From: Balanoglossus misakiensis
Lineage: Eukaryota; Animalia; Hemichordata
Assembly (NCBI GenBank): GCA_040954595.2
Contig: CM082578.2
Coordinates: 6,185,519-6,249,518 of the forward strand
Direction of reading: 5' to 3'
DNA length: 64,000 nt
Part shown: positions 3,401 to 62,622 of the stretch, one piece after another
How positions within the stretch are numbered: position 1 is the stretch's first letter
Layout of the letters: each line of letters starts with the position of its first letter
The notes under the pieces: model-generated
The model's database searches: none
Seen by the model: only the letters and a program-made list of their open reading frames with translations
Told to the model about the DNA's origin: nothing
Translations under genes and position numbers: made by a program

Positions 3401-6400
3401 CTGTACTGGCAAGGAGGCAAGGACGATGGAAGTGACAATGGAGTCACATCCAGACAGTTGATCGTCATGGAAGATTTCATGATACAGTTTAAGGTGCTTC
3501 GTCTGTTCATTGTTAAATTGCCCTTCTTTGGTGCAACTATTAATTGTAGACATTCTCACACTTGCTCAATCTGATTAAAATCAGATGTGGTGATAGTTTG
3601 GCGCATTCTGTTCTCTCGACTTTAGCTGTTCTTGGGCGTACAGAATGTAGGACCCTTCCAAACAGAACAGCAAAGAATCAGCAAAAGTAAAGACTACATC
3701 TGATTTTAATCAGATCATGGACGTAAAAAGAGATTGACATTCGCTTAGCTGAACATGACCATGACAGAATGGTCCATTGGGGAAATTTTGATTCTATGAA
3801 AACAAACATTTTGTTGTTTCTACTTATTTTTTTCACTCTATGAAACATCAATTTATAATTATTATAGAAACTTTGTATAGACTTTGTAGACATACATTGC
3901 CATGTCACACACTACAACGAATGGCGCAATGCACCAAGCTTGACACCATAACAACATATTTCAACCTCCATTTTTCCACTGGTGACGCAGATCATCGTCG
4001 GTTGCGGCAGTCAGACAGACACCTGCTCCAAGTTGGAACCGGTGCATTTGCAGTACAACACAGACCCTGTGAAACCGCAGTGGCAGTCACTGAGATCGTT
4101 GTGTTTGCCGGGCACTGTTGATCACGTGGCGTGCCTACCCCATCAGTACTACGAAGCCACAACGTACGACACCAGCGGGTTCAATGAGTGGACCAGGATC
4201 ACGATGCCATTACCAGATGTGGCAATCTCAAGGTATATGATATGTGACAGACTATATCCATTGAAACTTGGCAACCGAAACAAAATATTGAAAAAAAATC
4301 TGCACTTCATAAACTTTTGTATGACTGACAGTTATAGGCATCAGTGGTCTAACCTAGTTATTTGGTTTGGTGATAGAGAATTATGTAGTTTATACAAAAT
4401 TATTTTACACCAAATATAATCAAATACTTGAAATTCCCAAACAGCAAGTGCTCTTCCAAATTTTTAACAATGAAAAATGCATTTGTTGCCGGATGTGTGT
4501 AAATTGAAATCACTTTGAAATCTTCTAATCTTCAGCGGGGTTTTTCCACTGCACACAATAAGAAAATCCATTCACCAAAAGGTTTCAGGGGCTTCTCCCA
4601 GATTGTGTGAATTGTTGTCTGAAGAATAATACAGCCATTTTTGTTGCCTAGTTTCACTCAGTTCCGTTGGATCCAAACATTGCCTACCCGCTCTGCACCC
4701 AGCTGGTCTCTGGATGACATCTACATTGGCGAGAAGTGTCCAGACATGTGTAGTGGACATGGTGTCTGCTCTGAAACCAAGGAGTGTATCTGTGATCCTG
4801 GTTACCAAGGTAACATATCATCTATTCAGCTATTCACATGTTAAGTTTCCATTACAACCCTGCATGTGTTGTAGCCTGTCCACGCTGTTGTAGACCATAG
4901 AGGCCGAAGATCTCCGTCCCTTTTATAACACGTGTGAATGCAAAAATTTAAAGCCACTGATAAGAAATGTTTACTGACTTATGATAATCGCAAATAGGGC
5001 ACCGGCCCTCACCATGGCACATGTGGAACCATCTCAGGTTGGAGTGGTATATTGTTTTCACTGAATCTGTACATCACAGAACTCTGATAATATAGGATTT
5101 GTATGAATTACATGTACATATAGAATTGTAATCATGCACACGTACAATAGGAACTGTGGTGCGAACTGTTTATGTCGTCTCGAATGACTCTTCCATTCTC
5201 TCTGTTCAGGTGCCACCTGCAAGCCTTCTGCCAAGCTGCCCCATTACATGATTGAGACATTCGAGTCGGGTGTGGCGTCTTCAAAATGGTCTTCGGTGCG
5301 CGGCGGTTTGGTGGGCAGGGGATGTGGATCGCTGCTGCCATACGCCCATGGCAAGAGTCTGTACTTCAATGGGTGCGGTGTGCGAGAGGCCGTCACTGTG
5401 GAGTTAGACACCTCAAAGGCCAGGTATAAGATGATGTACTAACTGAATCATGAAGGCACTCTGACAGGTGCTGGATTTATAGTAGTTAGAGTCCTTTGTT
5501 TTCCACTGGAATTCTCAACAAATTAAGTCCTGATACTTGAAAAAAATTCGCTGAGAATCTTTAATAGGCCCAAGAAAGTGAATGCGGAAGATGTAGATGA
5601 TTGATAGCACACAAAATATGCACCATTGGAACATTTGCTAACATGGTCTTGAGAGATGTCAGTAGGTTAGCAAGGGAATCCAGCATTCTCACTGTCAACT
5701 AAAGAATCATGGCTCACTTCTTTATAATGAATTTTACTCCCCCTTGTATCCCCAATGTATCAACTGTTAAAGTGAACCAACATGCCGACTGCTTACACTT
5801 CAAAAGCCTCCAAGGCCCGATCAAACAGTGCAATTATCTTGTCATTTCAGTGAAATTCAGTTTGTCCTTCAAATCGGAAGTCGTGGCCAGACACCGACCT
5901 GCAACATTGGACTGAGAGCCGGTGAGAACACCGAGAACAAAGCTGTGTTGCTGCAGTACTCCATCAACAACGGCATCGACTGGGTTCTGGTCCAGTCCCA
6001 AGACGCCAACGACTATTTGAGTCCCAAGAGAGTCTCTTACGAGTTGCCGGGCAAAGCCAAGAGCAGAGCCACCAAGTTCCGCTGGTGGCAGCCCGAACAC
6101 AGCGGCATTGGGTTTGATCAGTGGGCCCTGGACCATGTGGAACTTATCTTGTGAGTTTCATTGTTTGATTGCTTGTTAATTTGTTTTGTTATATTCACCA
6201 AGTCCAGTGGTGTGTGTGTGTGGGGGGGGGGGGGGGGGGGGTGTAGGTAGGTACATGTACATGTAATAGTGTGAAATGAAAGTGGAGGTCATTATCACTG
6301 GTGAAGACAGCTAGGAGAGACAGAGTAGGTCTTTGTCTTGGTCCCAACCTGGCTGGAATAATGACTGTTCAAATACACAGAGACCAGATTACATAGAAAT

Positions 6401-14300: not shown

Positions 14301-16241
14301 TTTATATGCTATTACATACAAATATGAAAAGTTTCATTTCAGTTATTCATTAAAATGCAAACATTTGTCAAAAAACATATGAATAGACACCTGACAGGCC
14401 AAAGTCGTATCTTTAGCTTTCAGTTGTCAATTTTAGCATGACATCATGACTAATTAAGCTAATTTTGCATATTTTCCATGCTGCGCCTTGTCTGACAAGG
14501 TAAACGATTGCATATTTGAATTCCTAGACCCTGAAAACATTGGAATAGACACCTCACTTAACACCGTTGGCTCTCTTATGTAGACCCATTGATTTTAGAT
14601 GGGCGTGTCACCTAATTAACATAAATTAGCATTTTTACCAGTTCACCAAATGTTTCTAAATTAAAAAAATTGTTTAAAAATATTTAAATGAATATAAGAA
14701 TATGATTTCAATAGACTATTATGGTGTTGACCTGTGATATTGCACCATAATGGCTACAAACAGCGTTTTCTTTTAGGTATTTTGAAATTATGACGTCACA
14801 AATTCATTTGCCATTTTCGACATGAAAACGTGAAAATAATTTTTGGGAACAGGCAAATTCGAAATCAGCGTATTCGAAATATCCAAAAACAACTTGTTCC
14901 CAGCTTGTACCAAAAAAATGAATGACATGCTTTTAAAATGCTCATTTTCTGAAATTTCCACCTGGACCTAATTAACATAAATTAGCATTTTACCAATTCA
15001 CAAAATGTTTCTAAATTAAAAAAATTGTTTAAAAATATTTAAATGAATATAAGAATATGATTTCAATAGACTATTATGGTGTTGACCTGTGATATTGCAC
15101 CATAATGGCTACAAACAGCGTTTTCTTTTAGGTATTTTGAAATTATGACGTCACAAATTAATTTACCATTTTCGACATGAAAACGTGAAAAGAATTTTTG
15201 GGAACAGGCAAATTCGAAATCAGCGTATTCGAAATATCCAAAAACAACTTGTTCCCAGCTTGTACCAAAAAATGCCTGACATGCTTTTAAAATGCTCATT
15301 TTCTGAAATTTCCACCTGACTATATAGGTCACAGAGAGTCCCTGTAGTATGTATTCCATGCCTCCTGAGAGGTTAGTTAGCCAATAGAAGTTATCTTCAA
15401 CAACCACGAGTCGTGCGTTTTCACCAAAATCAGAGAAAACCACTGCATTTGTAGGGCTTCACAATTGTGTGTTCTGGGAAAAATCACCATGTTGCCACAC
15501 TAACTGGTCTCAACCATTGTAGTACAGGTAGAAGACATTACTGACCCGATGATGGCGAACTGCATGTTCGCACTTTGCGTATGGTTGATACAAAAAAACT
15601 CTCCAATTGAAAAAGTTGTGCTCTCAAAATGTTACAGAGCGCACTACAGTGTTAACAATGCTGAAGCTATCTATACTCACAGTAGACACATCCTCTTGGC
15701 TGCTTTCACTGAAATGGGCCGTCCCAACTATGTACACCTTGCCTCCACTGAATGTGTCTAACACTGTCACTGTCTCCGGCAAATCTGGATTCGACTGGCG
15801 ACTTTTCCTCATTCTTTGCCACACTGCCATATCGTCCTCATCCTCATCCTCAGCATCATTTTTGGCATCATCATCATCATCATCGTCGTCGTCGTCAACG
15901 TCTGTCTCTACCCCACTGCTGACATCTTGATATTCATCATCATCTTCATCATCGTCGTCATCTGACTGATCACTGTTGATTTTGTCATCGTCCTGAACGA
16001 CAACCCCATTTTCAACAGCTGTTCTCATTCCAGTGTCCTCTGCACTGGTCGTTTGTTCCTGATTCTCAGCACCCTCCCCCTCAGGCACACAGTTATTTAC
16101 TACATCATCACAGGAAGTGTTGCTACCGCCATGAGGAGTGCTGTAATCCAAATTCATCTCATCTTTGACGATACTGTCAGGATCTATGTCAGAGGCATTC
16201 TCAATGTTCAGGTCATGGTTTTGTTCTTCAACTACATCCAT
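8343..16241 (-). CDS. TRABD: TraB domain-containing protein with long acidic N-terminus and C-terminal hydrophobic anchor
   Basis: Exons 16241-15681, 10716-10576, 10095-9985, 9738-9599, 9474-9311, 9104-9005, 8478-8343. TraB motifs VYIVGTAHFSESSQEDV, QPDVVMLELCESR, PGGEFRRA, GDRPIQITLRRA, VFVDERDVFL, VVGVVGMGHVPGI; C-terminal TLLGLLAWGGY segment. A probable non-coding first exon ends at the donor near 16804. Confidence 0.93.
11620..13778. repeat. Internal inverted repeat pair (about 11620-11860 and 13541-13778) nested in the TIR element
   Basis: cttggctcagatgtgtgttaatgtgtactaaacaaattcagatagcgagcca... has its reverse complement at about 13726-13778; similarity continues for about 240 bp. Confidence 0.85.
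14611..15318. repeat. Tandem direct duplication (about 355 bp x2) of the right end of the TIR element
   Basis: Copy 1 at 14611-14964 and copy 2 at 14967-15318 both start cctaattaacataaattagc and end gaaatttccacctg; they are nearly identical. Confidence 0.92.
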
Positions 16242-16565
16242 TGCTTTTGTTTTCCTGGAAGAAATGGTAACAGTAAATAATATTAGTCAATGAGACAGTT
16301 TTACATAAAAAGAGGATCTAGTGGACAACAGTTCCCAAAACTGTTGCCAGCTTGTACTAGTTGTAGTGTATGCATGCTAGACATTAGCTGTGGGCCCATA
16401 GCTATGGTGTTTTCAAAACACAACAATGGACCCACAACTAGCTATAAGTATGTGTGTAATTGTAATTTAAAGGGATATGGTCACCTCCAATTTACATACG
16501 CTCATATAATAGCTAAATGGTGTATTTATTGAGTGTTCTAAAGAACATATGGTGGCACTCTTTTT

Positions 16566-17410: not shown

Positions 17411-19180
17411 AGTTGTCGGTCGGCGTTCACAGATGTTCAATCAACATGTTCAATGCTGAGTGCGTTTGGGGCCGAACGTTTTGGTACTTCGATATCGACG
17501 CGCAAACTGCTGCATTTAGCCCGAACATGTTTTCAATAAGTTACATATTACATACAGCGTTTCCAATGCATATAATGTACATGTATAGCATAATTCTGAT
17601 GCTTGCACTAAAAGCTCATACATGTAATTTATTTGTATCAAGTTCGTTTATAATTTTGCCTGCAAAGTAAATATTGGTTTTCCATGGACCCCTCAAACAA
17701 GATACGCATCTCTTGTGTACCGATGGAAAATATTAACAAATTGTAATAATATAAAGTGCATGGGGACAGGCGTGGACAGACAAGCCGCGCTAATACCAAT
17801 AAAGACTTGATAAGGTATCAGTCATTGCAGTGACATTTTCAGGTTGCATTCTCAGTATGACCTTCCCACAACAAACAAAATATTATATCAAACATGAATT
17901 TTTTTCTAAAAAAAACCTTCATATAGTTCAGTTGAAAAAAATCATTTTCATATTAAATGTATGAAAATAAATTTTGGTCTACAAGGCAAGAGAACAAACA
18001 TTTACATCTACTTTACGTACATGATGATGTATGTAAAGTTTTTGCCTATGACAAGTTCCACACAATGACACAGTATCATGGCTGTAATTTAATCAAGTCT
18101 TACATTAACTGGCTTCCAAAGATGCTGCTGCAAATATACTGTTTTTAGAAAAAAAATTTCCAATTTGAATACAGAACTTTAGTTTTAATATTTCCAAAAC
18201 AAAATGGCATCATGTGTATGAGACATAAACCACTATCATTTATATAAAGAGAGTATTAACGCAGGCACTATGAGCTTGTTCTTGGAGTACTATAACTGAA
18301 ATCTTGCCATACTGAATAGACAGGTGTGGCGTGTACAAATAAAAACGTATGATGATCACTTCATGCAATTCATGAAACTTTGTACTCATTTGGCACTAAT
18401 TCAATGAACCTCTCCAATGAGGTAAGCCGGGGGTCAAAATACATTCTGTCATGCCTTGGTTACTGTTCGCACTGCAAAATATTCAGAAAAAAATGACATC
18501 ATTGTAATCTCCTGAAGTCAGCGCTGTTTTGTAAATATGAGTAATTTTGATTTGTTGAGCCAATGAACACAAAGTCCAAAATTGCCGGTCTTGTTTGTAT
18601 AATATCAACACCGGCATCATCATCTTTACATTGGTCACTGTAGGATAGTGTCTGCCACTTCTCGCCTATCAGCAGCTGATAAGGTTAATCAACCGATTAA
18701 CATTCATACACTTAATTCCCCAGGTTCCCCATTCATGCACATTTTCATGGCAAGCACCACAGCACAGAATTTCAGAAGTCGTGTCACAGTGCCAGGACTC
18801 CTGATATTCTAATTTCCAATCTTTAATAAATCCAGTGTAATCTAAACGTGTCAGAATGCTATTTAAATTTTAAGAGCACCACATTGCCTATTTCTAAATT
18901 TAATTCATAAAAGTAATATTTACATGTAGTCTGCCATATGGCATACATGTATTATGGTGCTCATTCAACCTGAGTAACAGTTGGCTTTAATGCAATGTTT
19001 TTTGAAAACATACATTTTTAGTTATTGCTTGGTAAACTATTTAAAATGATGGTAGGCTGTTGTATGCATTGATCACAAAATGTCCACACTCCCCTTGTGA
19101 CAAGTAACACAGCCGGAGTTCAAGCATATTTTACAAATGCCCTGTGTTTGTATTGTATTACAGATATTTGATTTTACACA

Positions 19181-22100
19181 ATGGGGAATGTAGAAGCTCA
19201 CGATTTTGTCCCAGTGAGGGACGATGAAAGGAAGGAGCTGAACCTGAGTCGGAAAGTGAATCCACAGCTTTATGATAAGGTAAGCAAGAAATTTGAGGTA
19301 TTGGTGGCAACTGCCAAACATTTGCAATGACACTTTTTAAAAAATTGTAGTAGAATACTAACTGTTACCTGTTACTAATACCCCTTTCTCACGTGCCGTC
19401 AACGCCGCCCCAGCGGCGGTGCTAGGGCGGCGTTAATTTGTAAGTGCCACGTGTGAAAAGGTGAGAGCGGCCCTGCACCGCTCTTTTTTTGTGACGGTGT
19501 TGAGGGGTGGGACCTGGGTCGGGGCGCCGCACTAAACAGCGATTCAAATCACGTGTGAACAGAAACACCGCACTAAACGCCGATCTAAACGCACTCTGCC
19601 CACGCGGTTTGAGGGGATACAAGTGGCAGTTTCTAATGAGCTTGCATGTAAAATTACCCCTCTGAAAAGAGCGATGTTTAGCACCTTGCTTAGTCAACGG
19701 TCAATTTGCCTTGTTGCTGATGGTCATCAGTAAAATGAGGAGCCCCAAAACCTACAGGCAAAGCCTTGAGGTAGTCGGAACTTACTGCAGCTGGGGCTCT
19801 GCTGAAAAAATTGAGACGCCCAGTGGAAGTGGTAGTGAAACTTGTAGCAAAGTTCATGGTGATAATTGCTAGGCAACTAGGTCTTGCCATTGTCTGGCTA
19901 AAAATACATCCCTGTGCGTGAATAAATTAAAAACGTCTTTGTCCCAAGGGACCAACTCAAAGCGTTCCCACATCCCGGTATGCTTTTACTACTAGCATGG
20001 AGTCATGCTACTAGTATATTACGCACTGGTTTCAAAGCTGTAAGACTCACAGGCGGTACCGTAGAAGCGCTTATACTTATAGGATGACTGTACAAAAACT
20101 GGAAAAGTGTGGATTTTCTCGGATCTTCCATTTATTTGATGTGGAACAACAAATGGGACAAGTGGCGAAATGTGTCCTTGATTTTCAATCGCACCATGAA
20201 GCCTATTTGAACCTAATTTGCATAAATGTCCGAGGGGGTCCTTCTGGCACTTTGACTCATTTTTACCCCCATTGTTTCATCTTTTTGTAAAGAATAATTA
20301 TTTTTTCCTGGTCGAACCCGAAGGATAGATTACGGTATACGCTGTTTGGGTATAAGTCCAGAGCTACATATACAGTAAACACATCACTGAATCCGCCATT
20401 GTGACCTTTAGCCACTCTGCTTTGGACGCATTGAGTGCGGTGATCCCGTCCCTTTTATACACATGTGAATGCAAAACTATTTGAGTCGCTGATAAGAAAT
20501 GTTTGCCAACTTTTATAATCCCGAAAAGGGCGCCCTAATCATTTCACGTGAGAAAGCCCTTTAACTGCTTTTGTATGTTCATGAAGATAGCATTTACTGC
20601 TCAGTCTGGTGCCAGAGCAATCATTATCAGTATTGCCTGTAGGGTGTGACAGTGTATTCATGTGCTTAGTGGCCATATCTGTTTCAGAGAAGATGCTGGT
20701 ATCTGTCTTACACACAAACCCTCAAAATTACAGGAATGTACACAAAAGTACATAAAAAATAATTAACTTCAAAATCTTCTCAGGTACTGGAATGACTGCT
20801 TACATAATGAAAATATCAAAATTTTGCAGGTTTTTTTTTATTGACAATGATGAATTCTCACAGGATGTCTGGTTATCTTTATTCTTTTTCACGCACACCG
20901 GTACAGATGTATATCGATTTATGTACTGCTATCATAAATGGTGGTGAGCATCATGTACTTCCATGCCAGTTAATTCATGCCAGTGTTGTCAAGCACCGGG
21001 CACATTTGTCATTCAGTTTATGTCACAGTGCACATTTAAAGATTATCAAAGTGTCAGGACTTCAGTTTTGAAGCAATGTTGGCCAGTTTATAGCCTGTTT
21101 GTGAGCCTGCAAATAGGTGTGACAGCTAACATCTTTCTATTTCTTGAAATTCCCAATCTTTTATATTCCAACATGAGTACATGCCTCCATGTACACATCA
21201 CACAGCAGTATCAATTCAGTGTGCACAGTTTGCAGATATCCAATCAGTAAGAAGTGTAACACCCTACCTCATCGATCCCCTATCTATCTAACCATTGCCA
21301 ATAATTACCTGATGATTGGGATTTCTTTTAATATCCTTACCTTTATCCTACAATCTGATGTCATGGATCTTTAAAACACTACAAACAGGAAAAAAATACT
21401 AGGCTATTATAAGCAGCAGGTATTGACTCTTTTTTTTCCCCTCCACATTTAAATTTCAGCACATGAATGGAGAAGCAATACCGGGCTCGCTCACTGAGCT
21501 TCCGTGGAATATAGTGGACTCCATCTCCCTCTACGAACACATGGACGTCTCCTTCAACATGCTGACGCAGATCCCGGTGGAGATCCCGCTGCGCCTGCCC
21601 CACCTCAGCTACGTGGACCTGAGCCACAACCACCTGACCTCCTTACCTCACAGCTTCGGGCTGCTCTTCCACCTGCAGGAGCTGCTGCTGAACCACAACA
21701 ACCTGAAGCACATCCCCAAGTCGTTCGTGCACCTGGTCAAGCTGGAGAAGCTCGACCTCTCCTTCAACGAGCTGGCGGCGCTGCCCGAGGAGCTGGGCAC
21801 CATGGAGAAGCTGCGCAAGCTCAACGTCAGCCACAACTACCTGCAGGCGCTGCCCCAGTCGCTGGGCACCTGCGCCGAGCTGGCGGTGCTGCTGGCCTTC
21901 AGCAACAAGTGCGAGGTGCCGCCGCAGTGCGTCTGCGACGAGGGCTCGGCCGCCGTCCTCACCTACCTGAGGAGGCACGTCCACAACGGATACGTTCCCA
22001 GGGACTTTCAAAAAGTCAACGTATTTAAAAGGGTTCGAGGTGAGTTTATAGTGGTGCCAGCCTGTCTCTGTCAAGTTTTGTTTTCCGTTTATTTACTCGA

Positions 22101-25100
22101 CTGGAACACTGATGTTTTTTTTTGTGTGGGATAACTGTGGATTAGAAATTCAGAAATCCCTCTTGTGTCATAATTAATTAATATTGCTGGTATCATAGAC
22201 ATGCTGGTTATACAGTTCTGAGTACAGTATTTCTCAGCTTTGTCCACTAGCCACTTCACTGTCGGTTGTAACGTGGGCATGGTTGTCGTATTCTGACTAT
22301 TTATGTTGTGATAATTTTTGTGTGGATACATTCTTGTCTGAGGTGTACTACTTGCTGCTGGTTTGAATGAAGCAACATGACCAACAACTAGACCAGTGAT
22401 GTAATGTTCTTATTCATTTCAATAGTTGAATTAAAGTAAAGCTTGAAGTCCCCCCCCCCCAAAAAAAAAAAAGTGGTCAAATAATCCTGGCATGATGCCT
22501 TAGTTGATGCAATTCACTCACAGATCCTTCCTGGAAAACTCTTTTCACTGCATCAGAGAAAATCATTTGAATTCCTCTAAGCTTGCACTGGACTTGGCAC
22601 TGCTTCTGTACACTTCAGATGATAAAACCATACGTAGCTCCCTACCCCCCTCCCCATCTCCCCCTCCTCTACCAATAAAGCAGTGGGCAGGAAAACGAAG
22701 GCCCCCAGCAAACAGCTGTGAGATAGAATCTTTTCTATCATATCATGTGTTTTGACCAAAAGTTAGTCATACTATAGTACCGGTACAGTATGTATTATAT
22801 AGGCACTCACAGCAAATTTTCCAATTCTTGCACTATTTAGAGTCACAGTGTGTCCCTACAACATACGTGTACACTAGCTACTTTTCAGAATCAGACCAGG
22901 CATTTGGCTGCACTGCTACTTGTTTTTTTTTAATGCCAACTTACACTATAACATTAAAGCTGCAGTGAATTGATTACACAATTATGATTTCCAGGCATAA
23001 GGAAACGACCTTTCACACTCACATTAATACACAACTCCAACAGTGCTGTAACATTAGTTTTATCATGATGTCGATGCCGGATGGCATGATCCTAGCTAAT
23101 TTACATGTGAATACAGCAGGGTCAAAACAAGGTCAAACAATTTGACGGGGCTGCCAACTGATGGGCAAATATTGAAATTTTAACAATGATCTCACATAAC
23201 GAGTTTCATCACATTTTCAATTATTTCTGAAATGATAGTCATTTTTACCTGTTTTAAGCAGACAGTTCTGGAAAAAAAATATATAATGACTCATTTTATT
23301 ATGTGTTAAAAATATCTGGGGACTTCTGAGTTTAGATAACACCCAGTAGATAACATCTATCCACTTGTATTTCTGTTTTATTTGGGTTTATGAGTAAACT
23401 ATGTCAAATTAGGCCTGGCTTGCTATTTATGGTTGTTTGACAACATGTTGCTATCTGTCCTCATTTGCACAGGGACAGTCTGTCCAAGTCCAAAAGTCAA
23501 GGTCAGAATTCATGTAATGACAAATCAGCACCAGCTTAGTTTCATTTAGACTCCCTCGCAATCTCCTCCAAGTGATTTTATTGTACCCAAAACCAAACCA
23601 CAGAAGTACAAATGTTTCTTTTTTCCTGTTGAGAAGCAGGATAAATGGAATGTCAGGTGTTTGGACATCATTAGAATTAGTGTAACACTAACTATTGAAC
23701 AAGACTGCAGTGATGAACTGCCATACTCACTGATCCCAGAGAATTTTGATTTATACAAATAAATATTTATTTATTTTATTTATTCGTTAAACTTTTAATT
23801 TCAGGAAATGAAAAATTCCATATTTACAAAGGATAAAACACACACCAATGAAAAAAAATGTATACGTGTAGCCACATACACGTTATAGTTGATCATGTGA
23901 AGACTGATATCAAAAGTATCTAACAGTTGAACAGTTGCTCTCTTGGTAGACATTTGAAATGTTGGCTCAGGATTGAATGAAGGTTCTAGAGAAAATGAAC
24001 CTGCTTGAGATATGAGTTACGTTTGACTGAAAGCCTTTGTCCTTACTTTCAGGCAATGTCTTACAAAGTACAGTTGGCAATCCTCACTCAGCAAGGGCAC
24101 AGTATGTTCAAGAGCAGACACACACAGGCAACACAACAAGTCGAATACGGACGCCTCTGCGGCCGCCATTGCAGGCCACCAAACTAGAGGCCGATGAACT
24201 TATGGATAAAATCACCGGTAAAAACACTTTTTTTCTGTTAAACCCTTTCATGAATTTGAAGATGACTGAATACCCAAATACCCACTGAATATTTTGCTCA
24301 AGGCAACTTGCAATTATCTTCTCAGAATCTCTTAAAATTGGGAATGATCATTGGGGGTCACCCTGCAAAATTTTGAATGAGAGAGCAAAATGGTGTCAAA
24401 TTGTCTCAAATTCAAAATGGCCGCCAGTGTTTGTGTCGGACAAGGGACACCCACTTTTCTTTCTGTGTTTCGAAAAAGACTCCCCACACATGTATAACAA
24501 AGATTTGGAAGTTTTTGAGGACCATCATTCTTCCTGAAAATCTGTCCCGAGATGCATTGCTATCTTAAAATGTTCAAAATTAAGTCGTTCAGAGCTATTC
24601 TGATAGCAGAGATGGTTCTAACTTGTATTCCCTTTGTAACTTCCAGGCTTGATATACGGGGCAGCTATCGGAGATGCCATAGGGATAGCCACGGAGCATC
24701 TCACTCCAGACGAATGTGAGTTCCACTATGACAGGGATACACTATGCTACGAACACATACTGCAAGATAAACACAGAGTACGGTGGCAGAGAGGCGACTG
24801 GACGGTGGATTTCGATCAGATGGTAGGTCAACTGTCACTGTGTAGCCGATACATCTGTTGTGATGATGAAAAATGATTGTCACAAGTTTGTTTGCATTTA
24901 AAATAAAAAAATTCTTTCTTCTGTCAATGATGAACTACATTGTTTTTGGTTTGTAATTTGTGCACAACGTACTCCAAGCTTTCAATGTAATTCTTTCACA
25001 AAGATAAACTTCACTCATTTCACTTTTGTGAAATTTATATCTAATACTCAGTTGTAATGGATATCAGTATGCATGATTGATAATATGAAAAAAATGGCAA

Positions 25101-27758
25101 TAGGAGAAAATATTATGATATGAGCTCATGATTTTTTTTTCTTTCAAATACACACTGTACAACGTTAATAAACCCCAGCTCGGAGGGAGATGGTGTTTGG
25201 GGATAATAATCATATCTTTTGAAAAACAAAAATTGCCATGTGGTATTTTTGGTTCTGTCTGTAGATTTTAGTTCTGGATTCACTGCTATCATGGGCCGGT
25301 GTGGTGGATGAATTAGACTTTGCACAGAGGTTGTCATATTGGTGCTACAACGGTTTTCCAGAGCTGGGAGACATTGGTCCCAACTTAGTGTGCAATACCA
25401 TAGCCAAGGTGAGTCTGTGTTTTCAGAACCCCAGCAATATCAAACCCAATCAAATATGAAATATTCTATATCCATACTATCTGTGTGTTTCCAGAGCTCG
25501 TAAATATTAATCTAATTAAACATGCACTATTGTTCCTGCATTGAATGTTTTTTTTTTATCTCAGTGAAATGGATAATTCCGGCCAGATGTTGCTAATACG
25601 CGTGCAGAGAATTTGCAATGTTGTGTTGATGGGGGGGGGGGGGGGGGGGGTACAGTTTACTGAGCTTGATATTTCCCATGATTGCATTCACTGACCAGGT
25701 GGTGTCCGATGGCAGATACTTGCAAGATCCCCATGGGGTGGCCAGGGCAATATGGTCCAAGCTCCACGACCAGGGAGAGGCTGGTTGCCATGACTTCTTT
25801 GCCGACAACGGGGCGGTGGTCAGGGCGGCCATCTTGGGCATCCCACAATTCCATGACTTCAAGGAAGTCACCCAGAATACTGCGAGGATATGTCAGGCCA
25901 CCCACTGGGACACCAGGTTTGGTTTCATTTTCTTCACAAAGACTTTGCTATTGCCATTTTAAAATGGGAAACATTGGCAGTTATAGTGAACATAAAAATG
26001 CCAAATGTTTGTGTTCACAGATTTCGCCAAAACTTAACATTGTGATAATTTTCATAGAAAATGATCCACTGTGGATGAAATGATTATTGAAACAGTTTTT
26101 GAAACATTTCGGTTCTCTGATTCACTTAATTTTAATGCTAGGACATATATGTTTTCATCAGGTTTGTGTGTACACAAGTTGAGAGCAATGTTTGTGAGAA
26201 AGTACACATATTTTGAGGTGAAGATTTGAGGCTTGTTCAAAATGCTGGGCTCCATTCATGAACAAACAAGAAACTCGGACTCGTTGCTGGTCCATCAGGC
26301 ACCCTTGCATGTGACATGTAAATGACGATGTGTTTCTTCTGCAGGTGTCGAGCTAGCTGTGTCGTCATCTCTGTCCTGATAGCCCAGATCCTGCAGGGAA
26401 AATGTGACATCAAGAATTCGTCGTCGGTGGAGGAAATCATCGGCGTTGCCAAGGAGACGGGAAAACAGTTCTTATCAGATGCCGGCTACATCAAGGATTA
26501 CAGCCAGCAGTTTACAGTGAAGGATTTTGACGGGTAAGACATCATTGCAGACGTGATTCGTAAAGTCCAGAGTGTATTGCCTGGAAAGTACCAGTCCAAG
26601 GTCCATTGACACAAAGGGCATTGATAGTAATAAATCACAGGCCGTACTGTGGTCTGTCTAGTGTGACCCTTTGGAAAGAATAAACATGTTTACTTTCTAT
26701 GCCACTGTTTGAAGAGGTTGACCGAGTTCTGAAGGCCCCTAAAGTGTTTATAAAAGCCATTACACTGCATGGCCAAAAAATATCATTTTGTCTCAGTAAC
26801 GTTATTATCACAAAAAGTACATGTAATCTCCTGAATTTTAAATATGCCCGAGATGATGTTTTATTTGTTCTGGCATTATTGCCATAAATAAACATCGTGG
26901 CTTCAAAATTTTACTGTTCTGTGATACTTGGCTGTGATTAAACGCTTGTTCACAAATCATGCCTGCTAATAGTCTGTCCACTCTGTTTATTTTCCCAATT
27001 CAGCGTTCGCTTTGGAGAACCCAACAGACAGAGTTACACTTTCAAACCGATGTCAGCAGCTATAGCAGCGCTCAGAATGCAGACGGACTTCAAGTAAGAG
27101 AGGTTTTTATCCCTTAGTGCTTCATATTCTTTCAGTGAAGTCATCAGATCCATTGAATCACTACACTTCTCTTGGCTGACTCTGTATTACTGGAAGTGGA
27201 GAGATTAAGCTTTTAGTTTATTTGAGCCTTGTGTCTATGAATCTGCAGTTAGCAATACGGTGTTCTTGTACATAACAAAATAGTGGTACCACATTTCAAA
27301 TGTAGTCATCACTAGGCAATGAATAGAAGGACTTTCTGAATTCCCCCATTTTGGTTTGGTTTTAATCCAATATGTCTGACTTGTGTATTAATCGACTTCA
27401 TAATGATGGAATTTGAGTTTGTGAATTTGAGGTTCCAAAACTTTACTTTTGCCGTCATCATGCATTCAACACTAAAGCTGTGATACAAATGTTGAAGTCA
27501 TTGTCATCCCATCCACCACCATGTCACATGTTCGTCATCTCTCCTTGTCGATCTTCCCACCACAGGACGGCCGTGAGCGAGGTTGTGATGCGAGGCGCCG
27601 ACAGCAACAGCAATGCCTGCGTGGTGGGCGCCGTACTGGGATGCGTCTGCGGCTACAGTCAGCTGCCCAAGGCATGGCTGGAGGGACTGCGACGCAGGGA
27701 AGTCGAGTTGCTCAACCACAAAGTCAACGCTCTGTTGGACATGATGGGAATTCCGTAG
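19181..27758 (+). CDS. Leucine-rich-repeat protein fused to a C-terminal ADP-ribosylglycohydrolase (ARH/DraG family) domain
   Basis: Exons 19181-19279, 21460-22039, 24053-24217, 24647-24822, 25265-25408, 25699-25916, 26345-26533, 27004-27093, 27566-27758 splice in frame. Starts MGNVEA. LRRs LxxLxLxxNxLxxLP; ARH motifs GAAIGDAIG, GDWTVDFDQM, DNGAVVR, ATHWD, GADSNSNACVVGAVLG...YSQLPKAW. Confidence 0.9.
19379..20561. mobile_element. Non-autonomous PIF/Harbinger-like element (about 1.18 kb) in an intron of the LRR-ARH gene
   Basis: TIR core CTTTCTCACGTG (19384-19395) / CACGTGAGAAAG (20545-20556); TAA at 19376-19378 and 20562-20564; internal CACGTGTGAA subterminal repeats. Confidence 0.75.
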
Positions 27759-30699
27759 CGCTGTTTGCGTTCATCTGTGATGGTCTGTTGCTGCGGTGGT
27801 GTCCATGGCAACAAGGACAGATGCGATTATCACAGTGTATTTGACGGAGTGTGTACTACTTCCACCTTTTTTTCCCCATCAGTAAGAACTGATTTGGGTG
27901 ATGATACTGAGTGAGGTGTCAAGATTGCACTGTATAGAATATCAGGTATGTGTATGGGTACCATTACACGCGACCAAGAGACAAGAAGAAAATACATCTG
28001 CTGATGTTTGCTGCTTGCCAATCTAGTCTGAGGAGACAATCATTAAATCACAATCATTTTCTGACATTAAAATCAATTTCAGTGAGATGGACGTTCAAAA
28101 TATAATATGCAATTTAGACACAGGTTTCATATCACAAATTATCCACGTTTTGTAGAAAAGAATAACTTTGGCTTTTTTATTTTTCACAACAGCGCCCCCA
28201 AGTGGCAGTTCTTCTATTTTAACATGGGTGATATATAATTTATTAAAATTAAGTTTTCAAACAGTAGCAACTCTACCATTTTAAACAAGGATGATAATTT
28301 AACAGTTTTCAAAAGTGATGCTTAAATTCTAAATATAAATCACTTCCGTGTAAATTAACTTGCAACTTGTGGATATTCTGTCCCCATCACAATCATCAAG
28401 AAGTCTGTTGAGGATTTCATTGATTCAAAACGGTGCTACATTGTTTTCTGCTGATTTGGCTGAAGGAGCATCTTTTCTATTGTACTCAGATTATCCATTT
28501 TAATTATTAGTTTTTTCTCTTGCTTAAAGCAAGCTGTACTACCACAACAAATCAGATTTGTTGGCTCCTTATACTAGGTAGAAATTTTAGCCGCTTTTGG
28601 GTACCGTGTTTTTCTTGCCAAACGATAAAATCTGTTGGTGCATTACTTTTAATCAATCAGTTTGCTTCCAAATAGAGTGGGCTTCTCAGGCAAAACATGA
28701 TAATGCTTGATTTTTGATTATACCGGTAATAAAAAAAACAATAAATCTGAAATACTTTTATTCGCTTCAACCCTTAAAAACAGCGAGTAAAATTTTGTTT
28801 TTCCAATCAACTGGACAATATTAATTAATACCCACAGATCTCAGTAGCTCTTACAGCCCAGCAATTTCCTGTAAATTACCTCAGTTTGATTGGGCAAATG
28901 CCTGAGTTCGAAAATTATGAACGGGAGAATTGACAAATCTCTCAAAAGAGAACAAGAAATGCTTATAATAAACAAACATCATCTGTCAGTGACTTACGAT
29001 GCTGTCTGAGTTTCGCAGCTTTACGTTTAAATTATTTCAACACCACTTCACTCCAGACTTGTGTGAAAATCACAGTTCTTGTAAAGTTATATTTTAGGCA
29101 TCAAGAACAATATACGAAAGTGGATTTTTCAAAACTTCTAGATTTGGCCTTGACATTACCAGTTGGTAAGCAGATATTGTACGCAAACAAATGTGTTTAT
29201 GTAGATAAGCATTGCGCCAAACGAGGACTATGTACATTGGAGATTGTTGCTTCCGGTGTTCATATTTTTGTTTTGCAGTCATAAATGTTTGGAATAAGCA
29301 TAAATGTATAGAGATTTTTGGCCTGTGACAAATCTCTTCCTCGATGTATTAAACAGGTGTTTAGACAAAGTGATCGCAGCTCTAACTTTCTGAATGAAAC
29401 AATACAAAGTGCAATTTTGGAATGAGAAGATTTAATCCGACCTAATGGTTATATTTTCTACTGATGAACTTTCTATTGTAATGGTGATAATATAAAGGCT
29501 CTAAGAATTGCTGGCATCTACCCAACGTTATTGTTGTGTACATGTGCAAATAATGAAATTAATTATTTAAAGAATATATTGAATAATCATCAGAACTATA
29601 ATTTCCAAATAATTTTATTGTCATTATCACTTGGAACTTGACTACATTTCAGGTGTAATGTGATGATACGATCGATTTACATTAAATCAGTTTACAGTGT
29701 ATTGATTCAGTGATCAAATTTTAGACAGGTGCATTGGATGGTGAATTAAGAAATCCTTTGAATCACTGCCGGCATTACGCTGCCAGTCCAACTGGTGTCA
29801 ATCCACAGAGATTCAGTGTTTTTTTTCCTAGCAGTTATTTCCTCCACAGAGATCAGAATGAAGTTTTCGAGTGTGCAGGCAAGACGTTCCTTGTTTCTTC
29901 CTTGTCAGGGAAAATTTTTCAATGCAGTTCACTACAGAGAGTCTGACTGTTGCATACTCATGCAGTAGCAGTGTGCACGTTCATACAACCATACAGACAG
30001 CCATCCCTAGTATTGCCTTACGACTTCTCAGGATCACGATTTGTTGCACAACTCAAATCGCAGCTGTCTTTATTTCAGAATCATTGTACAATTATGCCAC
30101 ATGTTCTACGTGACCCTGCACAATACCATACAATGAAAACAGACAGACCACAATGCAGCTTTATGGATTATGTAAATGATTGACATCAAATTCTGTTTAC
30201 ATGTAATATTTTGCCGTTTCATTTTCTCATATTCACCTAACAGCAACATGGAATATTTTTTTTTTGCAACTCTTGAGGTGTTTTGTCAATATTTTCAAGT
30301 GGAATGAAATAAATATGCTGCTTTGAATATTGCAGAACTCAGTTTTGTGTTTCCTTGGTAACCCAAAAAAGTTTCTCCATCCTTAGTGTTTATTGTGTCA
30401 TCAAATGAGATGCTGTACTTTGACAAATTCACATCACTTGACTCATTATTCATCAGTGATGATTACTTTCAATGCGAGAATATTTTATCCATCATTTTGT
30501 TTGTATTTTGAGGATTCATAACTGATTTTCTTCCAGTCAAAAAGAGACATTAAAATTTTTCGTAATGAAAAGACATTTTCGATATTTACTTTTCTCTGTG
30601 AATTCTTGTTCTGTTCTCTAAAAGCTTGCTAAGTATTTGTCTGGTCATCTGCTTATATTAACATAAGAGTCAGTTGTTTTTGGTTCATTTTCCAAAACC

Positions 30700-33600
30700 T
30701 CAGGGCATGATGTAATGTGGGTCGATGATGTCTGGCATGTACGAGTGGTTATGCCACAACCGTTCTTCAACTACAGTGTCACTCCAAGATGAAAGACGAC
30801 TGGCTATGAAGAATGTGGACTCTGCAAAACAAATAAAATGGAAAACATGTCTGTTGAAATACAGTGAAACCTGTCTATTAAGGACATCTCTGGGACCAGA
30901 AAATCTGTTTTAAAAGCCTCTATAGCTGCCAAATTTCACATATTTTTTCCAAAGTAAAATACTTCGAATATATTCCCTATCCTCTAAAATCATCACCATT
31001 AAGCCATATTATTTGCTTCAGTTTGTCATCTCTCAAGAAAGCTACAGGTAGTCACAACACATTCATTTTGAAAACAAAGGCATTGCCAGGAATGTCAGTG
31101 AGCGTGCATTAGTGTAGCATGAATGGCAATGAGGTTTTGTTTTTTGATTAATGTTTCCAGTATTTTCATTCAAATTGTATCTTGTATCTACTGCAAGTTC
31201 TTGTTCTACTCACTATGACATGTCCATTGTGCTGCTTTTCATCACAGCTATATACGTATAATCACTGATGTTATTCTTTACAACTGAATTTAAGTTGAGA
31301 CTAAAATTCAAACAAAAACTCATTCACAGCACATCTCACCTCTACAAATTTCTTGTTCAACCAGAGATGTCTTGTAATTATCTCCTTTTAATTTCCAAAA
31401 AGCTGGCTGTGAACTTGAGATGAGGTCACTGATTGTATAAAAACCTGGTATTGTTGAGTAAAGGTGCTGTAATACTGGATTCTAGAAGAAAATTAAACAA
31501 GTCTTAATTTATATTTTAAAGTATCAAAGGGATATAAGCAGCTGACTTTTAATAGTGCCAACTCAAGGAACTGTGATTGCCTGCAATCATGTTCTTGCAA
31601 ATGAAGACATTAGTGCTAAGAAAATGCTGTGAAAAGTCTGTTGGCTTAATCCCAACACATACCATGGTAGGCTGTACAATTATCTGTACTGTAGTCACAA
31701 AACTCCTACCTCGACTGACAGAGTAGATGCAAAATAGAGTGAAGTTACATTGAACTGCTTCATGTAGGACAGGAAGACATTGGAGATGTTGCTATGGGAT
31801 ACGTTGAACATGATGCACACGTTGTAATGTAGTAGGTCACACCTATTAAAAGAGAAAAGGGTATAAATTACGAAAAATGATGTATGTATGTTTGTTGTGT
31901 TGTGTTCATTATTATTTATGAATACGACTAAAAGTAAGAATATTCTGCACAGCAAACTAAAGCATTGAAAAATTGCTAGGTCTTAATCTTGCAAGGAGAA
32001 AAATGAGACTGGGGAGGAAGATGCAGGAACAATGATATGCTTTTTCACTTTCAAACTGGAACTATAGGCACCGGGAAACACATTCACAATATTTCCAAAG
32101 TGGATAAAAAGTATTGAAAACCCTCAGAATCTATTATTTGTCAATTTTACCTTACAAGATATTTCAGTATTTGGTATATAAACAATTCTTTTTCTAATTT
32201 ACCCCCCCCCCCCACACCCCCACCCCCCGTGAATGTAGATATAGGTGGGGTAGATAAAACAGTTTGGCGGTCAGGTGCGAATGCGTGGAGGAAAACGGTA
32301 AACAACTCACCAAAAGGATTTGTATTCCGCATTGAATCTCCAGTGAACAGCTATGTACGGACCGCCTCCCAGAACTTTCTGAACGAAAGTTGCTGCCATT
32401 CGTCGAATTGGGGGCGCTCTGCGGACGTGCCTCGCAAACGTCTCCAAATACTCGCCGTACCAAAATCTCTTCCACATCCCGTAGGCGTATACCATGGCAA
32501 CACAGCGGGACTTCGATTCAAACTTTCGTTTTGACATTTCAAGGAATTTGTTGAGCGGCATATTCTTTTTCGGGATGTCGTTCACGGGTAGACCGATTAT
32601 AGTAGTACTGTTGCCGCTGTTGAAATCGGGGAATGAAATTCCTGTGGCGTTCGAGAAACGAGTGTTGATGTCTCTGTTCAGACTCGAAAAGGTGCCCCTG
32701 TATTCGCGCTCTGACATCGCCCAAGTATGGTTGATGGCGTGCAGAACAACCTCCACTCCCCGCGGACACTGCGCTTTGAACTCCTCCATCGTCGCCACGG
32801 GCAACAGTTTCCCCAGCAACGCAGTATCCAGAGTGTCGTTGAATGGTCTAAAGTCGCTCAAACCCAGAGTGAAGTGGTTGTAGAAAGGTGACGTCACCAA
32901 AGTTCTGTTTCTGTGCATGGCGTAAGCAATGGTCGATTTCAGAGCCTGCAGTTGGTTGTTAGGGCCTTGGTTTCCGAGCATGACGGGTAAAATATACTTC
33001 TTGGTGGACTGTAAAGTGACTGCTTTTGTTTGTTTCACAGTGTTCTGTTGCATGAAGGAGAAACACCAATAAAACGGTGACGTTACCACCATATTCATTT
33101 ATTAACTAGAAGGCGAGAACCTAAGAATTCGAAATAAAATATAGTAAAGTATATTTGCGATTGAAATTTCAAATTAAACGCACTTGTCATTCAAACACAT
33201 TTCAGGTATCTCCTACTAGTGCTATTGGCACGACCGGACATATATGCCCATAGTCCAGACCGGAGCAGTCACTGTGATTTAGATGGACACACTGCGGCCT
33301 GGATACCAGACTAGAATGCCCAGTGATTCATCCGCGCACGTGTGCCTACTTTTAAAGATATTTTAATGGAATTTTTTAGTGGACATCATATGAAAATATA
33401 AAACGTGTCATGTTTGTCTGAAGTTATGTTGATCTGTGCCTTACTTGTCAGTAAAGACAGAAATTGATGTCCCGACAACCCAGTTTTAAATAAAATGATT
33501 ATTCATATTACGGAAGTACAATGTAGCTGCAGCATGTTTCTAATACTAAACTTGAACGAATTTTAGGGGGGGTGTGATTAATAAACTCGGGATGATATTA

Positions 33601-45177: not shown

Positions 45178-45981
45178 TTACTCTGCACCTATCATGTCGA
45201 GCAGTACGTTCGCCATGTTCCGGGGCCAGGCGTTCCAAGAAAATCCCGCAATGATTTTGAGTGCCAGATATACGTCCATGATTTCAGACAACTGTCGCAG
45301 AACGTCCACATTATTGACAGAGAGGCACACTAACGTATAGCAGGCCCAGCAGGCTAGACGTTTATCGTCTGGGACGAGGATGATGTCGATCAGCGCTCTG
45401 ACTCCACCGAGACGTATGACTTTGTCCTGGGTGTCCCTGTTCACGTGACACATCTCACTTAACGTTCGGACTACTTCTACTTTGACATTGACCGTCGTGC
45501 CGGATGCCTTCAGCAAGTCCAACAAAGTGGCAATGTGAGTTGCTGCAAGTTTGTTGGCTTCCGGTCCCCCTGAAACGGTACAACATTATATGAGAATTTA
45601 CTGTTCACCTGTCGCTAACAATACACTTTTGTTTAAATAATTGTTCTTGTTTGACTTCAAACTAACTATTGTTTGGACTTTCCAGGTGGTGTGACTGTAG
45701 TTGTAAACTGCGAAAGACAAACGACTTGCCAAGTTGCCAGTTGTCGGTCGATCACGTGACAATTGTCAGCCAATCTTACCGGTGCATGCAAGAAGACCGA
45801 TCTTCTGGATGGCGTCTGCTTTCGTTTCGTTGTCCGCACTTTCTGTCAAACACTGGGCATACATCATTATATCACGTCTGTATTTGTTAACCTCACTATC
45901 CCAAGGTTGACTTCCTGTGTCGCCTCCGTGGGTAAAATGCGTCCACTTTTTCCCGACACTTTCGAAGACCCTACGAAACAT
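45178..45981 (-). CDS. Small armadillo-like helical protein, ARMH2-like
   Basis: Exons 45981-45780 and 45569-45178 join in frame (MFRRVFES...KIGLLACTG|GPEANK...). ARM-like segments (VRTLSEMCHVNRDTQDKVIRLGGVRALIDII; WACYTLVCLSVNN). The C-terminal WNAWPRNMANVLL resembles ARMH2 as I recall it. Confidence 0.7.
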
Positions 45982-59145: not shown

Positions 59146-59227
59146 CTTCTTTAAAAAGCGGTACCTCACCAGTGCATGGTAAAACGATTTGATCGACACA
59201 CCTGTACACATCGTAAAGTGTAAAATA

Positions 59228-59833: not shown

Positions 59834-60312
59834 TGATTACAGGAAATAGAACAATGTTTTTTAATGATGATAAATGTTATGACAACCGTGACACGTTGTT
59901 CTTTTGACGGATGTTTTTTTTTTTCATACACAATATCGAGCAGTGTAATTTAGCACAATGCATATACAGTACTACAGAAATAAATAAAATTGCTTTTATA
60001 CTTAATTTTATTGTATTGATGTGTTTGATCGCCGTATGGTTGTGATGTTGGATGTGATTGGTTTACGATGACCCCCGGGTTATCACCGACCATTATAAAT
60101 ACACTAAGACCCCTGTTTATACATTCATTTTACCCAAGTAAACAGCGATTGATATTTCGGGAGAGGAAAGACGCTCCCGACCCCATAACGCGTTGTCATG
60201 AAGCTCTGTTGTCAACCACCCTGTCACATTTCGAGATTTTTTGAAAAAACCAAGTGTATCTGTGTCTGTTTTGGGGGTAAATTGGTGGTGGGTAACAATT
60301 CAACCTTTACCG

Positions 60313-61410: not shown

Positions 61411-61423
61411 ACGTCTTGAAAGC

Positions 61424-62170: not shown

Positions 62171-62181
62171 GAAAACTTGTG

Positions 62182-62613: not shown

Positions 62614-62622
62614 TAAGTAGTC

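What the first reader, a model, noticed from the sequence alone, without database searches (positions are those of the whole stretch)
19181..27758. Putatively myristoylated LRR protein fused to a degenerate ADP-ribosylglycohydrolase: candidate ADP-ribose sensor
Seen: one in-frame spliced gene joins an MGNVEA N-terminus, about 6 LRRs, a linker and a complete ARH-fold domain. The motif corresponding to the Mg-binding TDD reads WTVDFDQ, and the one corresponding to DxDT reads GADSNSN. Known: ARH1, ARH3 and DraG need these aspartates for a binuclear metal centre, and family members such as ARH2 have lost them. The vertebrate ARH1-3 proteins are stand-alone domains without LRRs. Inference: a membrane-tethered LRR adaptor with a pseudo-enzymatic ADP-ribose reader, perhaps a sensor or decoy for ADP-ribosylating toxins or PARP signalling in invertebrates.
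Basis: partly seen in the sequence, partly recalled or inferred. Interest (0 to 1): 0.8.

Follow-up and report, generated by a model that had tools for sequence, protein, structure and literature searches.

The report
Ancient animal LRR–ARH pseudoenzyme adaptor
This gene joins a protein-docking repeat module to a domain of the enzyme family that removes ADP-ribose marks; sponge and protist versions keep the catalytic residues, but every cnidarian and bilaterian version examined has lost them, so in most animals it is likely a dead enzyme reused as a membrane-tethered adaptor, probably not an ADP-ribose sensor.

Summary
The gene model is right: nine GT-AG exons give a 617-aa open frame with MGNVEA, six LRRs, a linker and a full ARH domain. 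Single-chain orthologues of about 570-720 aa run from sponges to amphioxus and form one clade (100/99). No bilaterian row keeps more than 2 of the 4 metal aspartates (72 rows, 3 with gaps), and 3 of 3 cnidarian rows keep 1. Two sponge-type rows and 17 of 18 non-animal LRR-ARH rows keep all four. So catalysis was likely lost after sponges split off. The sensor reading is weaker. In bilaterians the glycine that contacts the diphosphate became Ser (66 of 72) and a small neighbouring residue became Asp (71 of 72), as in the non-binding pseudoenzyme ADPRHL1. The best-kept residues lie on the LRR, the linker and outside the catalytic motifs. In its favour, the window keeps the MgB-side ligands, and ARH3 D77A is dead yet binds ADP-ribose 23-fold tighter. 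Best reading: a myristoylated scaffold (0.55); ADP-ribose reader 0.25. I found no paper on this fusion. No RNA was available for this species.

The parts
19181..19279 (+). Exon 1: start codon, MGNVEAH N-terminus (predicted myristoylation at Gly2) and N-terminal cap strand of the LRR domain
   Evidence: Gly2 conservation; cap strand E19-21 in orthologue models
21460..22039 (+). Exon 2: six LRRs (aa 58-184, 21532-21912), C-terminal cap (PPQxxCDEGS) and start of the FxRxRG motif
   Evidence: Pfam LRR_8 E 6e-20; repeat register and invariant H81, H104, F222, R224
24053..24217 (+). Exon 3: conserved linker (NPHSARAQY helix, RIRTPLRPP) and first ARH helix
   Evidence: 79-89% identity in 8 of 8 hits; low pLDDT at 231-260 in the P0003 model
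24647..24822 (+). Exon 4: ARH domain with GDAIG, Glu-flap E298 and WTVDFDQ (24799-24819; V335 replaces the ARH3 D77 equivalent, D336 kept)
   Evidence: Pfam PF03747 E 1e-7; alignment to MJ1187, Tri1 and DraG
25265..25408 (+). Exon 5: ARH domain, WAGVVDELDF surface motif and diphosphate loop (C383 at 25391-25393 where active relatives have Gly)
25699..25916 (+). Exon 6: ARH domain, D424 (25804-25806), N425, G426, E444, R451, H457
   Evidence: Pfam E 4e-5
26345..26533 (+). Exon 7: ARH helices
27004..27093 (+). Exon 8: ARH domain with SYTFK (Y535, equivalent of DraG Tyr212)
27566..27758 (+). Exon 9: GADSNSN (27594-27614; D566 kept, N568 replaces the bridging Asp), C-terminal helix with N608/D612, stop codon
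   Evidence: Pfam E 8e-7

Best explanation
The gene encodes a 617-aa LRR-linker-ARH protein whose ARH domain lacks two of the four metal-binding aspartates and is likely a dead enzyme that works as a protein adaptor, predicted to be tethered to membranes by a myristate on Gly2. Shown: the architecture, the residue losses, and intact motifs in sponge-type and protist fusions. Inferred history: the ancestor was a membrane-targeted eraser in which the LRR picked the substrate and the ARH removed its ADP-ribose. Near the cnidarian-bilaterian ancestor the metal site decayed and a conserved linker motif (NPHxARAQY...TPLxPP) appeared. Stand-alone ARH paralogues with intact motifs stayed in the same animals and could carry the catalysis. 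Inferred mechanism now: the protein docks partners through invariant LRR residues (F65, H81, H104, N155), the linker helix, which would fold on binding, and an ARH surface outside the catalytic motifs (W350, E356, E444, R451, N608, D612). The old cleft would be plugged by D424 beside H457. There is no nearby cysteine or basic patch, so membrane binding would be weak and depend on a partner. The partner is not identified; a small GTPase is a lead by analogy only.
For: Metal aspartates: 0 of 72 bilaterian rows keep 3 or 4 (9 keep 2, 36 keep 1, 24 keep 0, 3 have gaps), and 3 of 3 cnidarian rows keep 1. All 4 are kept in 2 of 2 sponge-type rows, 17 of 18 non-animal LRR-ARH rows and 118 of 122 rows without LRR. 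Single Ala changes at ARH3 D77, D78, D314 or D316 abolish Ser-ADPr hydrolysis (PMC8141533, passages). Pocket: G383 is Gly in 124 of 125 rows without LRR but Ser in 66 and Cys in 3 of 72 bilaterian rows. Position 424 is mostly Ala/Pro/Ser in active rows and Asp in 71 of 72. These map to coelacanth ARH3 G105 and G136; G105 contacts the pyrophosphate (PMC6309922, passages). ADPRHL1 shows similar Gly-to-Asp/Ser changes and ADP could not be docked into its model (PMC7390403, passages). Mean majority identity in 73 cnidarian and bilaterian rows: linker core 0.64, LRR 0.63, ARH 0.54. E444 and R451 are kept in 72 of 72 bilaterian rows but in 3-5% of rows without LRR. Both domains fold confidently in two orthologue models and match ARH at Z 36.6 and SHOC2 at Z 23.6. 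ARH-fold chains also occur as subunits of large assemblies (8xqw_G, 6sga_FP).
Against: No partner is identified, and no binding or localisation was tested. The window, P0002 and six crinoid, brachiopod, annelid and amphioxus rows keep E298, D336 and D566 together (8 of 72). That may be a one-metal site, and ARH3 D77A binds ADP-ribose at 0.06 uM. The window also keeps N425, G426, H457, Y535 and K538; H457 is kept in 72 of 72, so the cleft is still under selection. The pocket mapping rests on sequence alignments through a relative (E 0.002 to ARH3), not on coordinates. The models are of orthologues 57-58% identical, with pTM 0.66-0.67, so domain packing is undefined. The window has Ala at position 6, not the usual Ser/Thr, and only 36 of 68 rows fit a recalled PROSITE-type pattern. 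The Saccoglossus gene model (441 aa) lacks the LRRs.
Confidence: 0.55

Rival explanations
1. ADP-ribose reader or decoy: the dead ARH domain binds ADP-ribosylated proteins at membranes through a one-metal site, and the LRR relays the signal.
For: The window lost the D77 equivalent but keeps the E41, T76, D78 and D314 equivalents. In ARH3, D77A is inactive and binds 23-fold tighter, while D314A binds 44-fold weaker (PMC8141533). This pattern is shared by 8 of 72 rows spread over hemichordates, crinoids, a brachiopod, an annelid and amphioxus, so it may be the ancestral bilaterian state. H457 is kept in 72 of 72 and N425 in 54 of 72.
Against: The bridging Asp (568) is lost in all 72 bilaterian and 3 cnidarian rows. 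E298 is Arg in 23 rows, and D566 is His or Tyr in 17 bilaterian and all 3 cnidarian rows. The diphosphate-loop Gly383 is Ser/Cys in bilaterians and Arg in cnidarians, Asp424 adds negative charge next to the diphosphate, and Tyr535 is kept in 13 of 72. Metal-free ARH3 binds about 60-fold weaker. A family-wide reader function is hard to square with this.
Confidence: 0.25
2. Regulator of an active paralogue: the dead domain pairs with a stand-alone ARH of the same subfamily and recruits or restrains it at membranes.
For: Relatives without LRR occur in the same animals (Saccoglossus, Lingula, Owenia and others), and 118 of 122 such rows keep all four aspartates. Tandem ARH-ARH proteins exist, and in some the first domain is degenerate (P0089, P0238), so ARH domains can work in pairs.
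Against: No interaction was tested. I did not check whether the paralogues and the fusion are lost together. The animal-specific surface is already present in sponge-type rows that keep their own catalytic motifs.
Confidence: 0.1
3. Still an enzyme: it hydrolyses an unusual substrate with one metal or a rebuilt site.
For: The window keeps E298, T334, D336, D338, D376 and D566. D424, S383 and H457 are fixed in bilaterians and could form a new site. A review notes that ARH2's inactivity may reflect the model substrates used (PMC9738213, passage).
Against: All characterised ARH enzymes need the binuclear centre (PMC7050489 section 22). 24 of 72 bilaterian rows keep none of the four aspartates, and no alternative set of acidic ligands is invariant.
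Confidence: 0.08
4. Annotation artefact: the LRR and ARH exons belong to separate transcripts.
For: The Saccoglossus model P0002 starts at the LRR cap and lacks the repeats. The junctions were not seen in RNA of this species.
Against: 56 of 78 hits carry both LRR and ARH Pfam families in one chain. Twelve of them come from Logan contigs of 1956-4981 nt, too short to hold many introns. All 8 junctions are in register with orthologues.
Confidence: 0.02

Closest known systems
ADPRHL1 / ARH2 (vertebrate cardiac ARH pseudoenzyme)
   Same: ARH fold with metal aspartates lost and pocket glycines replaced by Asp/Ser. It works without catalysis; its old cleft is needed for myofibril assembly (PMC7390403, passages).
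   Different: ADPRHL1 is stand-alone and closest to ARH1 (PMC9738213). This protein nests in a different ARH subfamily (WTDD[TS]DQ / THxDPR / YTxK), carries LRRs and a Gly2 N-terminus, and lost different residues. The loss looks independent and much older. ARH1/2 were not in my trees.
DraG, Tri1 and MJ1187 (prokaryotic ARH-fold proteins, Pfam PF03747)
   Same: Best sequence and fold matches of the ARH domain (E 3e-20 to MJ1187; Z 34-36.6). They share the DraG-type Tyr motif.
   Different: Stand-alone, with intact metal motifs. Orthologues score 48-80 bits against NCBIfam cut-offs of 337 and 490.
Human ARH1 and ARH3
   Same: Same fold (Z 29-34); the motifs map position by position.
   Different: Active, no LRR, 15-17% identity.
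SHOC2, RSU1 and LRRC57/RABIN (non-catalytic LRR scaffolds)
   Same: The LRR domain and its cap match the C-terminal part of SHOC2 (Z 23.6). LRRC57 is N-myristoylated and binds Rab GTPases (PMC13640479, passages).
   Different: None has an ARH domain. The likeness is that of a common LRR class and does not show a GTPase partner.
LRR-ARH fusions of Anaeramoeba, Balamuthia, Pelomyxa, Protostelium and Diphylleia (database records; no study found)
   Same: LRRs before an ARH of the same subfamily; 11 of 17 long rows start with MG.
   Different: Intact catalytic motifs (17 of 18), often more repeats, no animal linker motif. A single origin with the animal fusion is neither shown nor rejected (AU p 0.35).

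Membership tests
ARH / ADP_ribosyl_GH superfamily (PF03747) | Profile match above the curated cut-off | tested here: met
   Exons 4 and 9 score 32.3 and 29.5 bits against a cut-off of 26.2; exon 6 scores 23.7
ARH / ADP_ribosyl_GH superfamily (PF03747) | All-helical ARH fold | tested here: met
   The model of orthologue P0007 matches MJ1187 at Z 36.6, rmsd 2.2, 297 aligned; tested on an orthologue, not on the window's protein
Catalytically active ARH enzymes (ARH1, ARH3, DraG) | Two aspartate pairs, [ST]DD and DxD[ST], for the binuclear metal centre | tested here: not met
   The window has T-V-D and D-S-N-S; 2 of 4 kept
Catalytically active ARH enzymes (ARH1, ARH3, DraG) | Glu flap, Asn/Cys-Gly and His of the pocket | tested here: met
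   E298, N425, G426 and H457 are present in the window
Catalytically active ARH enzymes (ARH1, ARH3, DraG) | Glycine-rich diphosphate loop | tested here: not met
   L381-V-C383 where sponge-type rows have G-I-G and ARH3 has G-A-G; D424 where ARH3 has Gly; mapped by sequence only
Catalytically active ARH enzymes (ARH1, ARH3, DraG) | Metal-dependent hydrolysis of an ADP-riboside | not testable with these tools
   Needs an assay
DraG (TIGR02662) and Tri1 (NF041672) equivalogs | Score above the curated cut-off | tested here: not met
   5 of 5 relatives score 48-80 bits against 337 and 490; NCBI's 'Tri1-like' names for relatives are automatic
ADPRHL1 / ARH2 | Orthology to ARH1-derived vertebrate ARH2 | not tested
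   No ARH1/2 sequence in the trees; ARH1 is the weakest ARH fold match (Z 29)
N-myristoylated proteins | Gly at position 2 | tested here: met
   MG in the window, 59 of 68 bilaterian, 3 of 3 cnidarian and 2 of 2 sponge-type long rows, against 15 of 125 without LRR; 5 of the other 9 have an MG a few residues in
N-myristoylated proteins | Ser/Thr at position 6 | tested here: inconclusive
   The window has Ala6; S or T in 26 of 59. Ser/Thr6 is neither sufficient nor critical (PMC4736023, passage); Asn3 occurs in 50 of 59
N-myristoylated proteins | Myristate attached in cells | not testable with these tools
   Needs labelling
LRR proteins of the SHOC2 class | LxxLxLxxN repeats of 23 residues with caps | tested here: met
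   Six repeats; E 3e-45 of P0003 to SHOC2; Z 23.6

The most novel reading that the evidence does not exclude
An ancient membrane-anchored ADP-ribose eraser, still active in sponges and phagocytic protists, was converted near the cnidarian-bilaterian ancestor into a one-metal ADP-ribose trap, the natural counterpart of the tight-binding ARH3 D77A mutant. Hemichordates, crinoids, amphioxus and brachiopods would still use it as a myristoylated LRR sensor of ADP-ribosylated host proteins, for example after bacterial toxin attack. It would be the first dedicated ADP-ribose reader of the ARH fold.
Probability: 0.2. Interest if true: 0.8.

Novelty: new variant of a known kind. Interest (0 to 1): 0.52.

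Why it matters
It adds a second ARH pseudoenzyme to animals, apparently independent of ADPRHL1 and far older, kept as one orthologous clade across cnidarians, protostomes and invertebrate deuterostomes. It comes with a natural series that can be assayed side by side: intact (sponge, protist), metal site lost (anthozoan), partial site with remodelled pocket (hemichordate, crinoid, amphioxus), and fully eroded (many molluscs, arthropods). That series makes a direct test of how an eraser becomes a reader or a scaffold. The intact forms also point to a membrane-targeted, LRR-guided ADP-ribose eraser in phagocytic eukaryotes, for which I found no study. The domain pair is visible in automatic annotations and no function is shown, which caps the score.

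Tried and rejected
No RNA holder was listed for window 19100-27900, so the junctions could not be read from RNA; this says nothing on expression. No whole genome is held, so paralogues in this species were not counted. The complex prediction of LRR+linker against the ARH domain returned no model; whether the domains pack on each other stays open. Two single-chain models gave pTM 0.67 and 0.66, which does not define the packing; the Atlas model of P0003 has pTM 0.77. The ESM Atlas gave no usable hit for the linker and only generic LRR clusters at 0.79, below its bar, for the whole protein. Five literature searches found no paper on this fusion: 5 papers, listing seen; 15 papers, 13 listed; 892 papers, 25 listed; 8 papers; 0 papers. 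Passages of two hits (PMC1314882, PMC3482391) did not describe it. The library lacks most subscription papers and I read no supplements, so a mention in a domain-architecture table could be missed. No vertebrate, tunicate, nematode or fly record appeared among named hits. These searches are word-limited, so loss in those groups is suggested, not shown. One origin of animal and protist fusions was neither rejected nor shown. Three rows without LRRs and of apparently bacterial type (P0072, P0073, P0079) were mislabelled as LRR-bearing by my profile and were moved to the no-LRR set. Position 381 is misaligned for rows without LRR and is cited only for sponge-type and cnidarian rows. The careful 83-row tree did not finish and its quick version is reported; a 39-row careful tree followed.
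Full report
Observation. Nine exons between 19181 and 27758 have canonical splice sites and matching phases, and give a 617-aa protein. Pfam finds LRRs in exon 2 and ADP_ribosyl_GH in exons 4, 6 and 9. The window's protein is in register with six orthologues at all eight junctions. No RNA run was listed for this stretch. The nearest relative is Saccoglossus, 70% identical over the ARH domain with the same two motifs, so the source is probably a hemichordate (inference).

The fusion is real and old. The linker exon alone retrieved 8 proteins of 11 candidates, six of them full-length LRR+ARH chains from echinoderms. The Amphiura protein retrieved 78 hits, of which 56 carry both domains: amphioxus, brachiopod, priapulid, annelid, molluscs, bryozoan, chelicerates, crustaceans, a myriapod, a dragonfly and a sponge. 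Twelve come from Logan contigs of 1956-4981 nt, which fits spliced transcripts (inference; the record type is not shown). A search with P0044 added Porites, Nematostella and Montipora (best 120 of 271 listed). The exhaustive search (best 150) added further LRR-ARH rows. Of 30 rows looked up, named ones include Anaeramoeba, Balamuthia, Pelomyxa, Protostelium and Diphylleia; 11 of the 18 rows I call non-animal are unnamed. In ARH-domain trees the animal fusions are one clade (SH-aLRT 99 in 83 rows; 100/99 in 39 rows), with sponge-type rows at the base and cnidarians plus bilaterians above (94; 94/89, not starred). Most non-animal fusions form a separate group, and one common origin is not rejected (AU p 0.35).

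Catalysis. ARH enzymes need two aspartate pairs and a binuclear metal centre (PMC7050489, section 22 read; PMC9738213, passages), and each single Ala change kills ARH3 (PMC8141533, passages). The window loses the D77 and D316 equivalents. Among 72 bilaterian rows none keeps three or four aspartates, and the D77 and D316 equivalents are gone in all. This set includes the window and unnamed rows assigned by similarity. The three anthozoans read WTDSFD and GGHATCN and keep one. Two sponge-type rows (Corticium P0040 and unnamed P0044), 17 of 18 non-animal fusions and 118 of 122 rows without LRR keep all four. Cnidarians and bilaterians share Phe at 337, loss of the bridging Asp and the linker motif, which favours one decay on their common stem. 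They lost different other aspartates, so two losses are not excluded, and the sample is small (three anthozoans; no ctenophore or placozoan seen).

Reader or scaffold. For a reader: the window and seven other rows keep E298, D336 and D566, and ARH3 D77A is dead but binds ADP-ribose at 0.06 uM, against 1.4 for wild type and 63 for D314A. Against: the pyrophosphate of ADP-ribose is held by G105, V106, G138, S134 and H168 of coelacanth ARH3 (PMC6309922, passages). Through an intact relative, G105, G136, G138 and H168 map to window C383, D424, G426 and H457 (a weak alignment, E 0.002, but the motifs line up). Position 383 is Gly in 124 of 125 rows without LRR, Ser or Cys in 69 of 72 bilaterian rows, and Arg in the three cnidarians. 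Position 424 is small in nearly all active rows and Asp in 71 of 72. The adenine-stacking Tyr is kept in 13 of 72, the window among them. ADPRHL1 shows the same kind of change, and ADP could not be docked into its model (PMC7390403, passages). I could not inspect coordinates, so the clash is inferred.

Where selection acts now. In 73 cnidarian and bilaterian rows the linker core (0.64) and the LRR (0.63) are better kept than the ARH domain (0.54). Invariant or nearly invariant polar and aromatic residues include F65, H81, H104, N155, F222, R224, N236, F307, W350, E356, E444, R451, N608 and D612. Most of the ARH ones are rare in relatives without LRR. The linker helix is well conserved but poorly predicted (pLDDT about 43-54 at 231-260), the pattern of a segment that folds on a partner (inference). 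Both domains fold well in models of two orthologues, but their relative position is not defined (pTM 0.67 and 0.66). The ARH domain matches MJ1187, DraG, Tri1 and ARH3 (Z 32-37), and the LRR domain matches SHOC2 (Z 23.6).

N-terminus. MG starts 59 of 68 long bilaterian rows, 3 of 3 cnidarian, 2 of 2 sponge-type and 11 of 17 non-animal rows, against 15 of 125 rows without LRR. Asn3 follows in 50 of 59. Position 6 is Ser/Thr in 26 of 59 and Ala in the window; that position is not critical (PMC4736023, passage). The window has no nearby cysteine or basic cluster, and myristate alone does not give stable membrane binding (same paper), so the tether would be weak. Myristoylation is predicted, not shown.

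Mechanism. I commit to a myristoylated pseudoenzyme adaptor (0.55): catalysis lost (strong), cleft plugged (moderate), partners bound through the LRR, linker and an ARH surface outside the catalytic motifs (inferred). Rivals: ADP-ribose reader (0.25), regulator of an active paralogue (0.10), altered enzyme (0.08), artefact (0.02). LRRC57/RABIN, a myristoylated LRR protein that binds Rab GTPases (PMC13640479, passages), is an analogy for the partner class, not evidence.

Novelty. It belongs to the ARH superfamily by profile and fold, fails the test for an active ARH, and works most like ADPRHL1, from a different subfamily and with a different architecture. Five searches found no paper on the fusion; supplements were not read. 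Verdict: new variant of a known kind, interest 0.52.

Noticed in passing
P0290 (Pelomyxa) and P0273, P0294, P0311, P0312, P0336, P0337: The same ARH subfamily is fused to a ubiquitin-binding zf-UBP domain (PF02148) in 7 of 120 listed rows. Lead: an eraser aimed at ADP-ribosylated ubiquitin in amoebae; the link to bacterial ubiquitin-modifying enzymes is recalled and untested.
   Followed up: partly
P0316, P0301, P0321, P0325, P0326, P0331: NADAR (PF08719) plus ARH fusions in 6 of 120 listed rows: two kinds of ADP-ribose eraser in one chain.
   Followed up: partly
P0089, P0236, P0237, P0238: Tandem ARH-ARH proteins in a hemichordate, an annelid and a bivalve; the first domain is degenerate in some (WTDNSD, WTNNSD) and the second is intact.
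   Followed up: partly
window 59183-63963 +: PC4-like ORF, an rve integrase with a chromodomain (Pfam) and two long ORFs without a Pfam hit; together they look like part of a Polinton/Maverick-type element (label recalled).
   Followed up: partly
window 5771-6151 +, 32310-33098 -, 45181-45585 -: Neighbouring exons match Reelin subrepeat B, O-fucosyltransferase and ARMH2; no functional link to the finding is apparent.
   Followed up: no
window 15627-16286 -: Upstream divergent gene with an acidic stretch and a VYIVGTAHFS motif that resembles TraB-domain proteins (recalled; no Pfam hit at E 0.01).
   Followed up: no
window 21460-22039 +: The LRR exon has GC3 of 0.89 against 0.45-0.78 for the other eight exons; unexplained.
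   Followed up: no
window 53283-53711 +: ORF resembling the end of a family 18 chitinase followed by a Thr-rich linker (recalled; no Pfam hit at E 0.01).
   Followed up: no
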